Assembly: GCF_009914755.1 (NCBI RefSeq)
Contig: NC_060931.1
Origin: the human T2T-CHM13v2.0 reference genome, Homo sapiens
DNA: 64,000 nucleotides
Direction: 5' to 3' (one strand)
In this document: positions 26,361 to 60,744 of the stretch, piece by piece
Layout: every line of letters begins with the position of its first letter
Position numbering within the stretch: position 1 is the first letter of the stretch
Translations under genes and position numbers: made by a program
The notes under the pieces: model-generated
What the model saw: the letters and a program-made list of their open reading frames with translations, nothing else
What the model was told of the DNA's origin: nothing
The model's database searches: none

Positions 26361-27361
26361 AGAGGTGGCTTAAGCTTCTCAAAGTTAAAATGGAGACAAC
26401 ACCTGAAAAATTCCTGAGCAGACACAACCAGTCAGGTCTCAAATTACCTCAACCTTGACTGATTTGCAGACATAAGCGACACTTAACCTGAGCCATTTCT
26501 TGTAAATTCCCATTTTAAAGAAGAGTAGGATTTAAGCTCAACAACCAGATGTAGCCAACAAACTTTTAATAATCGTATCAACGAGGGACTTTCCAATGGG
26601 ACAGAACAAATAAGGCAGCTGTGCAAGTGTAACCAAGCCAACATTCTTTGCTTTACTTCTGTGTCGTCTATAAAAGCCTCCCCCTCACATTCCTTCAGGG
26701 GAGTTCCTGAACCACCTCTGGTTTGGAGCTGCCTGGTTCATGAATTGTTGCTTGCTCAAATGAACTCTTTAAACACAGCACTGTGCCTCAGTTTACCTTT
26801 TTGACAGTCTCGTCAGAAGTGAGATCCCCAGAAGCAGCGAGTAACCAGGCGTGGGCAGCCCCCGGGCCACTGCACCCACTGCTGTCTTGCTGCATTTGGT
26901 GGCCACTGGGGAAGCCCCTCTAGGAGGTCGAGCTCCACAACTTGCACCCTGAGCTCTCCGACTCCATGGGAGCAGTTTTTATTCCAGAGCTCAGCCTGGG
27001 TCTGACAGGGACTGCACTGGAACCTGGACTGGGATCCAGAGTGAAACTGGGTGTTCTACAGGAACTGGCCTGGATCCAGTCGGAGGCCTCAGGTAAGAAA
27101 AATGTGAGAAAAACAGGGAATTATGGGTTCATCAGAATCCATGGAGTCTGGGACACCCCATCTGGAACTCCAGCTAATTACATGTTCAGAAACTACAGAC
27201 CCAGAGCCCGTGCCTTTCTGGAGAAATGGGTGCAGCTCAGGGGGATGACTCCGAGTCACAGTGACCACAGTGGGAAGTTTATTCCACATGAAATCATTCA
27301 CGGACGGGCACATTCAAGAACAAGGAATCGTGAGTATCTGCAAACCACGCAATATATTTTT

Positions 27362-27520
27362 TGATTGGCATACAGACTGATTTCAGACAGAATGATTGGC
27401 ATACAGATTGATTTGAGACAGAATGATTGGCATACAGATTGATTTCAGACAGAATGATTGGCATACCGATTGATTTTAGACAGAATGATTGGCATACAGA
27501 TTGATTTCAGACAGAATGAT
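27362..27520. repeat. 31-bp VNTR, 5 copies (in ERV copy A)
   Basis: gattggcatac recurs at 27363, 27394, 27425, 27456 and 27487. Confidence 0.95.
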
Positions 27521-29149
27521 TCCAAAAATGCAGCCTCCCTAAAGGAATCTCTACAACACTCAAACAAAACGCTATTTTGATTTCTTGCCTTTTCCATGTG
27601 AAGATTCTGAAAACCAACTTCCTTACAAATTAAATCCTCCACTGAGCCTGGGGCATCTGCAACAACTAACTCAGATTTTGGCCTCTTGCACACAACCCTG
27701 AGCTATTACAAAAGCAGCCACCTGAGGCTGAAGAGGAGAAGGACTCGTCAACACACCAGTGTCTCCTGGCCACCCCCTAAACACGGCCCACGGTCCCAAT
27801 AAAGCTGACCCCGGACAACAGGCAACTATGCCCACAGCTCCTTTCTGGAGAAAACTTAATGTCCTTTCTCCCTGCCTTAGAGATACCGAAATCTTTAAAA
27901 TGCAGGCATCTGGGAAATGACGCATCAGAAGGGAGAAAAAATGGGAACACTGTAGAAAAAAACTGGCAAATGGAAAATCTTAAAGTCCTTTCCATATGTA
28001 TTAACAAAAGACTTTGGCCATCCGAACAGGTAACTTTATCTGCCAAGAACACAATTTGGACCGACCAGTGAGTTTTATATTATCGTTCCTGGCACAGGGC
28101 TACAATTTGAGAACAGAGGCCAGGAATCTCTGCTTCTGTCTGTTTGGTTATGTACGTCTATATGTATGTATGTTATTTATATCTCATATTACCCTACCTT
28201 CTGATGTTATTATTAGAGATAACATATAAACGAGATCTATTTTATTTGCCTAAAGAAAATTAGGTGCTTGTAAAAATTAAATATTTTGTGAGAAAAAAGG
28301 AACTAACCCAATGGTTTTCAAGTTCATCTAACTTGAGTAATCTTTAATAAATAAGAATGTCGATGATGTAGTAGAAATGGACATTCTACCTAGCTGAGCT
28401 AGTCAAATAAGCTCATTATTCCTGTTAAAAAATTTGTCAACAAGAAAAATAACCTGAGATGACAGGTAGTTTGATATTATCCGTCTGTTTAAAAACAGTT
28501 TCCAAAATATTTTTGAAAACTTGAAACTCTGAAATTATACTAAGTTAAATTAAATGATATTTACTACATATCTAGATCATGCCCAAATAAGATAAACTAC
28601 TAAAACACTAATTCCTAAAAAGAAGTTTAAGCTCAAGTATTTTTGGCTTATTCTAGAGGAACTGGAGCTACCTAGGTCTGCCAGTAAGTGTGTCCTGTGC
28701 TGAGAAAGTACATGCCATTTAATAACTATGATATCATGTACTTCCTAATTCACAGTGCATATCAGTGTCACTAAGGATTAAGAATTTGAATTAACATGTG
28801 TAATTAAAATCACTAGAAATAAAGATGAAAGCAAACAACTGTATATGAAAAAAACAGAGAAAGTATGATGTGTTTTTAATAAGGAAAAGTATATGAGGTC
28901 TGTGTTTAAGGAAAAAGAGAGTACTTTTAACTTAAAGCAAGATGACTGATTGTTCCAGAATAAAAAAGAAGAAAATGAGTAAGAAAAAAACTGAGTGGGT
29001 ATACACAGTTGTAGAAAGTCTGACAAAAGAAATTTTATGTGTGGTCAAACTACTAACATTAGAATGATTTTATTTATAAGTTTTTGTTAAAAAAAGCTTC
29101 AAGTACTGACACAAAGTGAGTTTGTTTTCTATTAATAGTGCAATATTTT

Positions 29150-29447
29150 CTTTCTTTTTTTTTTTTGAGACGGAGTCTTGCTCTGTCACCCAGGCTGGAG
29201 TACAGTGGGGCCATCTCGGCTCACTGCAAGCTCTGCCTCCTGGGTTCACGCCATTCTCCCGCCTCAGCCTCCTGAGTAGCTGGGACTAGAGGCGCCCGCC
29301 ACCAGGCCCGGCTAATTTTTTGTATATTTAGTAGAGACGGGGTCTCACCGTGTTAGCCAGGATGGTCTTGATCTCCTGACCTCATGATCTGCCTGCCTCA
29401 GCCTCCCAAAGTGCTGGGATTACAGGAATGAGTCACCGCGCCTGGCC
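29150..29447 (-). mobile_element. AluY
   Basis: Y diagnostics (cactgcaagctc..., gggttcacgccattctcc, ccgtgttagccaggatggtc); TSD-like aatagtgcaatattttctt / aataggacaatatttttctt. Confidence 0.93.
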
Positions 29448-57992: not shown

Positions 57993-58825
57993 AAAGATTA
58001 CTCAAGTTATGTGACCTTGAAAATGATTTGGGTTCATTTGTTTTCTGAGAAAATTTGTATAAGCACTTACTTTTCTTTAGGCCAGTAAAATAGAGCTCTT
58101 TTAATATTATTTCTAATAATACCATCCAGAGGTAGACTGATATAACATATAAATAACATACATACATATAGACGTACATAACCAAACAGATGCAGAGGTT
58201 CCTGGCTTCTGTTCTCAAATTGTAGCCCTGTGCCAGGAACGATAATATAAAACTCACTGGTCGGTCCAAATTGTGTTCTTGGCAGATAAAGTTACCTGTT
58301 CGGATGGCCAAAGTCTTTTGTTAATACATATGGAAAGGACTTTAAGATTTTCCATTTGCCAGTTTTTTTCTACAGTGTTCCCATTTTTTCTCCCTTCTGA
58401 TGCGTCATTTCCCAGATGCCTGCATTTTAAAGATTTCGGTATCTCTAAGGCAGGGAGAAAGGACATTAAGTTTTCTCCAGAAAGGAGCTGTGGGCATAGT
58501 TGCCTGTTGTCCGGGGTCAGCTTTATTGGGACCGTGGGCCGTGTTTAGGGGGTGGCCAGGAGACACTGGTGTGTTGACGAGTCCTTCTCCTCTTCAGCCT
58601 CAGGTGGCTGCTTTTGTAATAGCTCAGGGTTGTGTGCAAGAGGCCAAAATCTGAGTTAGTTGTTGCAGATGCCCCAGGCTCAGTGGAGGATTTAATTTGT
58701 AAGGAAGTTGGTTTTCAGAATCTTCTTATGGAAAAGGCAAGAAATCAAATGTTAGTAGACTCAAAATAGTGTTTTGTTCGAGTGCTGTAGAGATTCCTTT
58801 AGGGAGGCTGTATTTTGGAGTCCTC

Positions 58826-59415
58826 CTGTCTAAAATCAATCATCTGTATGCCAATCATTCTGTCTAAAATCAATCGGTATGCCAATCATTCTGTCTAAAA
58901 TCAATCTGTATGCCAATCATTCTGTCTCAAATCAATCGGTATGCCAATCATTCTGTCTAAAATCAATCGGTATGCCAATCATTCTGTCTAAAATCAATCT
59001 GTATGCCAATCATTCTGTCTAAAATCAATCGGTATGCCAATCATTCTGTCTAAAATCAATCTGTATGCCAATCATTCTGTCTGAAATCAGTCTGTATGCC
59101 AATCATTCTGTCTAAAATCAATCGGTATGCCAATCATTCTGTCTGAAATCAATCTGTATGCCAATCATTCTGTCTAAAATCAATCGGTATGCCAATCATT
59201 CTGTCTGAAATCAATCTGTATGCCAATCATTCTGTCTAAAATCAATCGGTATGCCAATCATTCTGTCTGAAATCAGTCTGTATGCCAATCATTCTGTCTC
59301 AAATCAATCGGTATGCCAATCATTCTGTCTAAAATCAATCTGTATGCCAATCATTCTGTCTCAAATCAATCTGTATGCCAATCATTCTGTCTGAAATCAG
59401 TCTGTATGCCAATCA
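58826..59415. repeat. 31-bp VNTR, 19 copies (in ERV copy B)
   Basis: gtatgccaatc from 58846 to 59404 = 18 intervals of 31 bp. Confidence 0.96.
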
Positions 59416-60744
59416 AAAAATATATTGCGTGGTTTGCAGATACTCACGATTCCTTGTTCTTGAATGTGCCCGTCCGTGAATGATTTCATGTGGAATAAAC
59501 TTCCCACTGTGGTCACTGTGACTCGGAGTCATCCCCCTGAGCTGCACCCATTTCTCCAGAAAGGCACGGGCTCTGGGTCTGTAGTTTCTGAACATATAAT
59601 TAGCTGGAGTTCCAGATGGGGTGTCCCAGACTCCATGGATTCTGATGAACCCATAATTCCCTGTTTTTCTCACATTTTTCTTACCTGAGGCCTCCGACTG
59701 GATCCAGGCCAGTTCCTGTAGAACACCCAGTTTCACTCTGGATCCCAGTCCAGGTTCCAGTGCAGTCCCTGTCAGACCCAGGCTGAGCTCTGGAATAAAA
59801 ACTGCTCCCATGGAGTCGGAGAGCTCAGGGTGCAAGTTGTGGAGCTCGACCTCCTAGAGGGGCTTCCCCTGTGGCCACCAAATGCAGCAAGACAGCAGTG
59901 GGTGCAGTGGCCCGGGGGCTGCCCACGCCTGGTTACTCGCTGCTCCTGGGGATCTCACTTCTGACAAGAGACTGTCAAAAAGGTAAACTGAGGCACAGTG
60001 CTGTGTTTAAAGAGTTCATTTGAGCAAGCAACAATTCATGAACCAGGCAGCTCCAAACCAGAGGTGGTTCAGGAACTCCCCTGAAGGAATGTGAGGGGGA
60101 GGCTTTTATAGACGACACAGAAGTAAAGCAAAGAATGTTGGCTTGGTTACACTTGCACAGCTGCCTTATTTGTTCTATCCCATTGGAAAGTCCCTCGTTG
60201 ATACGATTATTAAAGTTTGTTGGTTACTTCTGATTATTTATTCTGATATGATCCTTGATATGATAATAATTGATATTATTGATATCAATTATTGGTAGAT
60301 TGATATAATTGATATGATATTCTGGTATGATTACTAAAAGTTTGTTGGCTACTTCTGATTGTTCTGATAACTTAAGTTCTATTCTTTTTTAAAATGGGAA
60401 TTTACAAGAAATGGCTCAAGTTAAGTGTTGCTTATGTCTGCAAATCAATCAAGGTTGAGGTAATTTATGAGACCTGACTGGTTGTGTCTGCCCAGAGCTT
60501 CTTGATATCTGTTTCCTTTTAAATTTACTTTAAAATAGCCAGTCTAACAATATTACATGTGCTTCATGCATTTAACTTAAAAGATTGTTTTCTAAAGACT
60601 ATCTTTGTTTATGGTATAATATTATAAAATACTATTTTATTTTGAATTAAAAACATCTGTTTTTCAGGTAATATCAAAAGAGGATACCAACGTGGCCTTT
60701 AAGAATATACACGTTTTCCATGTAATTATTTCTCATTATTTGTT

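What the first reader, a model, noticed from the sequence alone, without database searches (positions are those of the whole stretch)
26385..60510. VIPR2 promoter and exons 1-2 lie inside an invertible cassette bounded by inverted ERV copies
Seen: two related ERV1-type elements (about 26385-29655 + in intron 2; about 56580-60510 - upstream) are inverted relative to each other and share ~1.4 kb of near-identical sequence. Between them lie the CpG island and exons 1-2; exon 3 onward lies outside. Established: NAHR between inverted repeats produces (often recurrent) inversions, and 7q36.3 rearrangements near VIPR2 have been linked to schizophrenia. Inference: a crossover in the shared tracts would flip ~30 kb and disconnect promoter and signal-peptide exons from the rest of the gene, giving a reversible null or switch allele, germline or somatic. 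I cannot confirm novelty. Inversion-like calls may already exist in SV catalogues, and conversion polymorphism can mimic them in short-read data.
Basis: partly seen in the sequence, partly recalled or inferred. Interest (0 to 1): 0.85.

Follow-up and report, generated by a model that had tools for sequence, protein, structure and literature searches.

The report
Known VIPR2 inversion repeats, retrovirus-derived
Two old retrovirus-like remnants face each other around the start of the VIPR2 gene and are partly near-identical, but they are almost certainly the published repeat pair behind a rare inversion that breaks this gene.

Summary
They share two near-identical tracts: 777 nt with 4 substitutions and 1 indel, and 518 nt with no difference. 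A 31-bp array (5.2 versus 18.9 units) separates the tracts. The rest of the shared length is only 73-88% alike. Exons 1-2 and the CpG island lie between the copies; exon 3 lies outside.

The family is an old LTR element. It has TG..CA ends, a 4-bp target-site duplication (the class I signature), and a mean pairwise LTR distance of 0.26, roughly 60-130 My. I found no gag/pol homology and could not name the family.

The mosaic points to recent gene conversion between two anciently separate copies.

Reviews cite Beri et al. 2013 for inverted low-copy repeats at VIPR2 that cause a validated, very rare gene-breaking inversion (HsInv0626) and DUP-TRP/INV-DUP rearrangements. This is the only non-Alu inverted pair in 224 kb around the gene. 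I could not read the primary paper, so the match to the published pair is inferred. Nothing supports a somatic switch.

The parts
26368..29658 (+). Proximal copy of the LTR element, in VIPR2 intron 2 and antisense to the gene. It has a 5' LTR and about 2.5 kb of internal sequence, interrupted by an Alu. It ends abruptly against another Alu (29659-29985) and has no 3' LTR.
26368..26806 (+). Proximal 5' LTR, about 439 nt, ending in ..ACA. It carries a kappa-B-like decamer (26585-26594) and TATA-like and CCAAT-like words (the motif names are recalled).
54792..60535 (-). Distal copy of the same element, upstream of VIPR2 and in the same sense as the gene. It has a 5' LTR and internal sequence running almost to where a 3' LTR would begin. 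No 3' LTR was found.
59973..60535 (-). Distal 5' LTR, about 563 nt. It is longer than the proximal LTR because of extra sequence at about 60233-60322, which includes a 30-nt tandem duplication.
26585..27361 (+). Near-identical block A, proximal arm (partner 59416-60194): 4 substitutions and 1 indel in 777 nt. Longest identical runs are 273, 264 and 209 nt.
59416..60194 (-). Near-identical block A, distal arm.
27362..27521 (+). 31-bp tandem array, 5.2 units, in the proximal copy.
58826..59415 (-). The same 31-bp array expanded to 18.9 units in the distal copy.
27600..28117 (+). Identical block B, proximal arm (partner 58208-58725): 518 nt with no difference.
58208..58725 (-). Identical block B, distal arm.
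29138..29474 (-). Alu inserted in the proximal copy only.
57678..58002 (.). Alu inserted in the distal copy only. It lies about 230 nt beyond the inner end of block B.
28118..58207 (.). The roughly 30-kb segment that a crossover in block B would flip. It holds VIPR2 exon 2 (36957-37056, -), exon 1 (39233-39379, -), the CpG island (about 38300-40400) and several minisatellites.
   Evidence: RefSeq table in the brief
3844..3951 (-). VIPR2 exon 3, outside the repeat pair. In this haplotype exons 1-3 are in gene order, with GT-AG introns and an open reading frame.

Best explanation
Two remnants of one old, low-copy LTR retroelement family sit in opposite orientation about 30 kb apart. One is in VIPR2 intron 2 and the other is upstream of the gene. 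The family is class I / ERV1-type by its 4-bp target-site duplication.

The copies have long been separate: their outer parts are 73-88% alike, each has its own Alu, and there is no homology beyond the LTR edge. Non-allelic gene conversion has recently made about 1.3 kb of them identical or nearly so, in two tracts. Those tracts are the substrate for non-allelic homologous recombination. A crossover there inverts the promoter, CpG island and exons 1-2 relative to exons 3-13 and breaks the gene.

[quoted passage not shown] 2013; InvFEST HsInv0626). It is known to give a rare inversion polymorphism and complex DUP-TRP/INV-DUP rearrangements.

Shown here: the repeats, their mosaic identity, the gene anatomy and the LTR nature.
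Inferred: gene conversion as the cause of the mosaic, and identity with the published pair.
From print only: that the inversion exists in people.
For: Repeats and mosaic. K2P is 0.000-0.005 in the two tracts against 0.09-0.16 in the other shared parts.

Separate histories: unshared Alus; array of 5.2 versus 18.9 units; no homology between the 5' flanks and no 3' LTR for either copy.

LTR element:
- 27 of the 54 rows are LTR-only matches elsewhere in the genome, at 71-78% identity.
- 15 of 20 fetched solo copies have clear T..CA ends.
- 31 of 60 flank positions match under a 4-bp duplication, against 24-28% for 3, 5, 6 or 7 bp. No shuffle out of 2000 reached 31.
- A chr14 relative has an LTR at each end in the same orientation.

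Age: mean pairwise K2P is 0.262 over 171 pairs of 19 solo LTRs. The two LTRs of the chr14 relative differ by K2P 0.277 over 279 nt.

Gene anatomy.

Only candidate pair: of 10 inverted rows at least 250 nt long and at least 88% identical in 224 kb, 3 belong to this pair and 7 are 289-313 nt, Alu-sized.

Print.
Against: - The primary paper was not held and supplements are closed. I saw no published coordinates, repeat sizes or breakpoints, so identity with HsInv0626 rests on 'only candidate in the locus'.
- Only one haplotype (CHM13) was available, and it carries the gene-intact orientation. No inverted allele was seen here.
- No retroviral protein homology: 0 of 29 distinct stop-free pieces reached any Pfam cut-off, 0 PDB matches and 0 named homologues. 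'Retrovirus remnant' therefore rests on LTR features alone.
- The outer parts of the two copies (K2P 0.09-0.16) are closer than random family members (0.20-0.35). The model needs either older conversion or an ancient duplication to explain this, and I could not tell which.
- No 13-mer hotspot motif lies in the repeats: 0 of the 20 window matches.
Confidence: 0.85

Rival explanations
1. The two copies did not arise as two insertions. They came from one ancient inverted duplication of a single element, and gene conversion later refreshed the centre.
For: The outer shared parts (K2P 0.09-0.16) are about half as far apart as random family members (mean 0.262, minimum 0.204; about 72% identity to the chr14 relative). 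Copies with internal sequence are few: some 35-40 loci are listed, which are lower bounds. Two such copies within 35 kb by chance is therefore uncommon.
Against: Homology stops at the LTR edge, and no 5' flank similarity appears even with 7-nt words. A duplication breakpoint exactly at an LTR end would be a coincidence. Older, wider gene conversion explains the same numbers.
Confidence: 0.3
2. The near-identical tracts come from a recent inverted segmental duplication, not from gene conversion.
For: High identity over about 1.3 kb.
Against: The identity is patchy: two tracts are separated by a diverged patch. The tracts sit inside a longer homology of 73-88%. A recent duplication would give uniform identity and would not leave old flanks of the same element on both sides.
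Confidence: 0.04
3. The published VIPR2 low-copy repeats and HsInv0626 are a different repeat pair, and this pair is undescribed.
For: I could not read the primary paper or any table of coordinates (supplements closed).
Against: No other inverted pair larger than an Alu exists in chr7:160232001-160456000, which covers the whole gene and both sides. The review says the inversion disrupts the gene and moves part of it 'several kb away', which fits a 30-kb flip with one breakpoint in an intron.
Confidence: 0.07
4. The cassette is a regulated or somatic on/off switch for VIPR2.
For: None beyond the geometry.
Against: The RefSeq table lists only VIPR2 in the window, so no recombinase gene is annotated there. 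Print describes a germline variant of very low frequency, not found polymorphic in 54 individuals. The repeats are decayed transposon copies, not short specific sites.
Confidence: 0.03
5. The near-identity is an assembly artefact, with one copy's sequence pasted over the other.
For: None.
Against: The arms differ in array length, keep private substitutions inside block A, and are joined to different diverged flanks.
Confidence: 0.01

Closest known systems
VIPR2 inverted low-copy repeats / inversion HsInv0626 (Beri, Bonaglia & Giorda 2013, Eur J Hum Genet 21:757; title seen in reference lists, text not held)
   Same: An inverted repeat pair at VIPR2. The inversion disrupts the gene and moves part of it several kb away. 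The pair also gives DUP-TRP/INV-DUP rearrangements, and the inversion is of very low frequency.
   Different: Nothing known to differ. I could not check coordinates, repeat size or breakpoints. I could not see whether that paper describes the repeats as LTR-element copies with conversion tracts.
Other gene-affecting inversions between inverted repeats listed in the same review (ZNF257/HsInv0379, CTRB1-CTRB2/HsInv0030)
   Same: Polymorphic inversions with breakpoints in inverted repeats that break genes or swap their first exons.
   Different: Different loci. The nature of their repeats was not examined here.
F8 intron 1 and intron 22 inversions in haemophilia A (recalled, no call)
   Same: A short inverted repeat inside an intron pairs with a copy outside the gene. 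Crossover separates the promoter and first exons from the rest of the gene.
   Different: X-linked, disease-causing and recurrent at a known rate. To my knowledge those repeats are not LTR elements.
Recombination between endogenous-retrovirus copies, such as the AZFa deletion between two HERV proviruses (recalled, no call)
   Same: Old retroviral copies with gene-conversion-refreshed identity blocks serve as recombination substrates.
   Different: Those copies are direct repeats and give deletions or duplications. Here the copies are inverted and give an inversion.

Membership tests
LTR retroelement of class I (ERV1-type) endogenous retrovirus | Long terminal repeat with TG..CA ends | tested here: met
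   15 of 20 fetched solo copies have clear T..CA ends and are 420-441 nt long. The proximal LTR ends in ..ACA.
LTR retroelement of class I (ERV1-type) endogenous retrovirus | 4-bp target-site duplication (class I 4 bp, class II 6 bp, class III 5 bp; the rule is recalled) | tested here: met
   In relatives, 31 of 60 positions match for 4 bp, against 24-28% for 3, 5, 6 or 7 bp. Shuffles average 16.2 (sd 3.5), and 0 of 2000 reach 31. This cannot be tested on the two local copies, which lack a 3' LTR. It was inconclusive for the chr14 relative.
LTR retroelement of class I (ERV1-type) endogenous retrovirus | Two LTRs in the same orientation around an internal part in full-length members | tested here: met
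   chr14:95.3245-95.3335 Mb has LTR matches at both ends on the + strand, with internal sequence colinear with the window copies.
LTR retroelement of class I (ERV1-type) endogenous retrovirus | Primer-binding site complementary to a tRNA 3' end next to the 5' LTR | not tested
I stopped the step.
LTR retroelement of class I (ERV1-type) endogenous retrovirus | Recognisable gag, pro or pol homology | tested here: not met
   0 of 29 distinct stop-free pieces (35-146 aa) reached a Pfam cut-off. The three hits at E 0.33-0.42 are to unrelated families. PDB gave 0 and named proteins gave 0. The pieces are short, so decay beyond detection is not excluded.
LTR retroelement of class I (ERV1-type) endogenous retrovirus | Match to a named Repbase/Dfam family | not testable with these tools
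   No repeat library was on hand. The RefSeq soft-mask does not even mask these stretches. The papers searched give no name.
Published VIPR2 inverted LCR pair / HsInv0626 | Inverted repeats placed so that a flip breaks VIPR2 | tested here: met
   One arm is in intron 2 and the other upstream, with exons 1-2 between them.
Published VIPR2 inverted LCR pair / HsInv0626 | No other candidate pair in the locus | tested here: met
   10 inverted rows in 224 kb, of which 3 are this pair and 7 are Alu-sized (289-313 nt).
Published VIPR2 inverted LCR pair / HsInv0626 | Published breakpoints lie in these repeats | not testable with these tools
   The primary paper is not held. Supplementary tables are closed.
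Published VIPR2 inverted LCR pair / HsInv0626 | Both orientations seen in people | not testable with these tools
   Only CHM13 was available, and it has the standard orientation. Print calls the inversion validated and very rare.
Segmental duplication (at least 1 kb at 90% identity or more; definition recalled) | Length and identity thresholds | tested here: inconclusive
   The two main matches are 978 nt at 98.8% and 1005 nt at 92.0% and overlap in the tandem array. The pair is borderline by size.
Programmed invertible switch | A dedicated recombinase and short specific sites | tested here: not met
   The RefSeq table for the window lists VIPR2 only. The arms are decayed transposon copies.

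The most novel reading that the evidence does not exclude
The two tracts are kept identical by repeated gene conversion on the human lineage. The gene-breaking flip and its reversal would then arise again and again at a measurable rate, possibly also in body cells. VIPR2 null alleles would be recurrent and sometimes mosaic, rather than one rare inherited variant.
Probability: 0.1. Interest if true: 0.5.

Novelty: already known. Interest (0 to 1): 0.15.

Why it matters
VIPR2 dosage is linked in print to schizophrenia through 7q36.3 duplications (abstracts and passages seen). An inversion that silently breaks the gene escapes arrays and short reads, and that is why the published repeat pair matters.

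This check adds three things. It gives a base-level map in the complete reference of where exchange is possible: two tracts of 777 and 518 nt, split by a variable 31-bp array. It shows that the repeats are old LTR-element copies. It shows that their likeness comes from recent gene conversion. These details are useful for placing assays and reading long-read data. They do not change what is known.

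Tried and rejected
Protein evidence for a retrovirus
- Pfam on 29 distinct stop-free pieces from the proximal copy, the distal copy and the chr14 relative gave only three chance-level hits to unrelated families.
- PDB sequence search and the named-protein word search on the 146-codon open piece (26924-27361, the same in both copies) gave nothing.

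Family name
- The RefSeq gene table has no ERV-named gene over any relative.
- Papers holding VIPR2 together with 'endogenous retrovirus' and 'LTR' gave nothing on this element.
- A recalled lead: an HGNC locus named for MER61 lies at 1q23.3, where relatives of this family sit in FCGR2A/FCGR2C introns. I could not check it because the cap on papers was reached. I give it no weight.

Primer-binding site
- Not typed (see below).
- By eye and recall, the bases after the chr14 5' LTR look like a leucine-tRNA type site. This is untested.

Other checks that came back empty
- A 3' LTR for either local copy, continuation of the proximal copy beyond its Alus, and homology of the 5' flanks: none found, even with 7-nt words.
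- Target-site duplication of the chr14 relative: its 3' LTR end is too decayed to place.
- The hotspot 13-mer: 20 matches in the window, none in the repeats.
- Rfam at gathering thresholds: 0 matches in the window.

Literature for details of the published repeats
- Searches were.
- 'VIPR2-LCR' occurs in 0 held papers.
- HsInv0626 occurs in 3.
- The primary paper is not held.
- From recall only, its abstract speaks of short inverted repeats and an inversion in almost 1% of healthy subjects.
- Supplementary tables of PMC13629690 and of inversion catalogues, which I could not open, probably hold the coordinates.

Full report
1. The observation

The two inverted copies exist. The repeat finder on 24000-63000 returned inverted arms of 714 nt at 99%, 601 nt at 97% and 247 nt at 100%. 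blastn gave a colinear series of inverted matches from 26414-29658 against 60495-56580.

Identity along the pair is a mosaic:
- 88% over 26414-26580.
- Block A (26585-27361 with 59416-60194): 4 substitutions and 1 indel in 777 nt.
- A 31-bp tandem array of 5.2 units in the proximal copy and 18.9 in the distal copy.
- A short patch (about 27522-27600) with about 10 mismatches and a 16-nt indel.
- Block B (27600-28117 with 58208-58725): no difference in 518 nt.
- Beyond that, 73-86% to the end of the shared length.

2. Gene anatomy

By the RefSeq table, VIPR2 exon 1 (39233-39379) and exon 2 (36957-37056) lie between the copies, and exon 3 (3844-3951) lies outside. Joining the three annotated exons gives an open frame that starts with a hydrophobic leader. 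Exon 1 codes for 17 residues, exons 1 and 2 together for about 50, and the introns have GT-AG ends. CHM13 therefore carries the gene-intact orientation. A CpG island spans about 38300-40400, with GC 0.73 and CpG o/e 0.85 over 39000-40200 (GC profile).

3. What the repeats are

A search of the whole reference with 26385-29137 gave 54 rows.
- 27 rows are matches to the first ~425 nt alone, scattered over many chromosomes at 71-78% identity. This is the pattern of solo LTRs.
- The internal part matches only a few loci.
- The tool reports 482 first-look candidates, of which 39 were scored, so these are lower bounds.

I fetched 20 solo copies with flanks.
- They align to 26382-26811, and the common start lies 9 nt further out.
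- 15 of the 20 have clear T..CA ends and lengths of 420-441 nt. L003, a near-duplicate of L002, was dropped, as were four copies with unclear ends.
- In these 15, the four bases before the LTR and the four after it match at 31 of 60 positions. The share is 24-28% for 3, 5, 6 or 7 bases.
- Shuffled pairings give 16.2 (sd 3.5), and none of 2000 reach 31.

By recalled rule, a 4-bp target-site duplication is the signature of class I (ERV1-type) elements.

A relative on chr14 has LTR matches at both ends in the same orientation, and its interior is colinear with the window copies.

The stretches are not soft-masked in the RefSeq file, which fits a low-copy family.

4. Bounds

The proximal copy runs from about 26368 to 29658. 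It has its own Alu at 29138-29474 and stops against another Alu.

The distal copy starts at about 60535. It does not stop at 56580: it stays colinear with the chr14 relative down to about 54792, just short of where that relative's 3' LTR begins. It has its own Alu at 57678-58002.

Neither copy has a detectable 3' LTR. The proximal copy does not continue beyond its Alus, and the two 5' flanks share nothing.

Without later insertions, the element adds up to about 5.2 kb. That is small for an autonomous retrovirus.

5. Genes of the element

I found none, so I cannot say which genes are broken or how often.
- 29 distinct stop-free pieces of 35-146 aa from the two window copies and from the chr14 relative gave no Pfam family at its cut-off. 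The only hits were three at E 0.33-0.42 to unrelated families.
- The longest piece is 146 codons right after the LTR and is identical in both copies. It matched nothing in PDB or among named proteins (15 unnamed candidates were left out by the tool).

Either the interior is non-coding, as in a non-autonomous element, or it has decayed beyond what short pieces can show. I did not read frames in the 3' part, where an envelope remnant could lie.

6. Age

Mean pairwise K2P among 19 solo LTRs is 0.262 (171 pairs, range 0.204-0.345; 0.254 with CpG sites dropped). The proximal LTR is 0.305 from them on average. The two LTRs of the chr14 relative differ by 0.277 over 279 nt, with two shorter stretches at 87% and 93% identity.

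Halving these distances and using recalled rates of 2.2e-9 and 1e-9 per site per year gives about 60 and 130 My. The family dates from around or before the early primate radiation. I could not test presence in other species.

The outer shared parts of the two local copies differ by K2P 0.09-0.16, about half the family figure.

Block A's 0.5% and block B's zero give a last homogenisation 0.7-13 My ago for block A and less than 3.6-7 My ago for block B, at recalled rates of 1e-9 and 0.5e-9.

7. How the mosaic arose

A recent duplication would give uniform identity. Instead, two sharp tracts sit inside an old, much more diverged homology, and each copy has a private Alu and a different array length. 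The simplest reading is non-allelic gene conversion between two anciently separate copies, in at least two tracts or events.

The outer edge of block A abuts extra sequence in the distal LTR (about 60233-60322). The inner edge of block B lies about 230 nt before the distal Alu. The tracts may therefore be limited by these heterologies. This is inference.

One point remains unexplained: why even the outer parts are closer than random family members. Older, wider conversion or an ancient inverted duplication would both fit.

8. What is known

[quoted passage not shown] 2013.
- PMC4352052 and PMC11293582 (passages) cite the same paper for inverted repeats that give VIPR2 triplication and DUP-TRP/INV-DUP structures disrupting VIPR2.
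- PMC13629690 (abstract, outline and one passage) genotyped 612 candidate inversions in 54 individuals. It names HsInv0626 as one of two very low-frequency known inversions that it did not find polymorphic.
- The primary paper is not held, and 'VIPR2-LCR' occurs in no held text.

To test whether the published pair can be another one, I compared 224 kb (chr7:160232001-160456000) against itself. Of 10 inverted rows at least 250 nt long and at least 88% identical, 3 are this pair and 7 are 289-313 nt, Alu-sized. I therefore take this pair to be the published one, at about 0.9.

9. Verdict

The 'somatic switch' extension has no support. What this check adds is descriptive: the LTR-element nature of the repeats, their class I integration signature, their age, and a base-level map of the exchange tracts in the complete reference.

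10. Limits

- Only one haplotype was available, and no other species.
- No repeat library was on hand.
- The primary paper and all supplements were out of reach.
- The cap on papers was reached before a recalled lead to a family name could be checked.

Noticed in passing
window 457-1037: A minisatellite with a roughly 20-nt unit carries 16 of the window's 20 exact matches to the 13-mer recombination-hotspot motif (motif recalled). 3.1 matches are expected by chance in the whole window.
   Followed up: no
window 23303-24691, 40562-41778, 46658-47783, 61392-62116: Four more large tandem arrays: a 56-nt unit; an ATC-rich complex array just upstream of the VIPR2 CpG island; a 28-nt unit with 40 copies; and a TG-rich array just outside the distal LTR. 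They are typical of a subtelomeric region and are possible sources of length variation near the repeat pair.
   Followed up: no
window 57144-57334: A 49-nt unit is repeated 4 times inside the distal copy, where the proximal copy (about 28710-28760) appears to have one unit. This is a second array that differs between the arms.
   Followed up: partly
window 26585-26594 and 60185-60194; L011, L012, L013, L018: A perfect kappa-B-like decamer sits in both local LTRs and in 4 of the 20 solo LTRs fetched, upstream of CCAAT-like and TATA-like words. It is possibly an ancestral promoter feature of the family (motif names recalled).
   Followed up: partly
window 26924-27361 and 59416-59853: A 146-codon stop-free frame lies right after the LTR, inside block A, and is identical in both copies. 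It has no homologue in Pfam, PDB or named proteins.
   Followed up: yes
L002 (chr7:77.96 Mb) and L003 (chr1:83.06 Mb): Two solo LTRs of the family on different chromosomes are nearly identical (K2P 0.016), including the printed flanks. This suggests an interchromosomal segmental duplication.
   Followed up: no
chr1:160777890, 160859472 and 160941261 (own genome): Relatives of the internal part lie in FCGR2A, an FCGR2C-like pseudogene and FCGR2C, as three identical-scoring copies about 81.6 kb apart. They were carried along by the Fc-gamma-receptor segmental duplication.
   Followed up: partly
window 26368-29137 and 54792-60535: These LTR-element stretches are not soft-masked in the RefSeq FASTA, although the Alus nested in them are. 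A mask-based scan would therefore miss the repeat pair.
   Followed up: no
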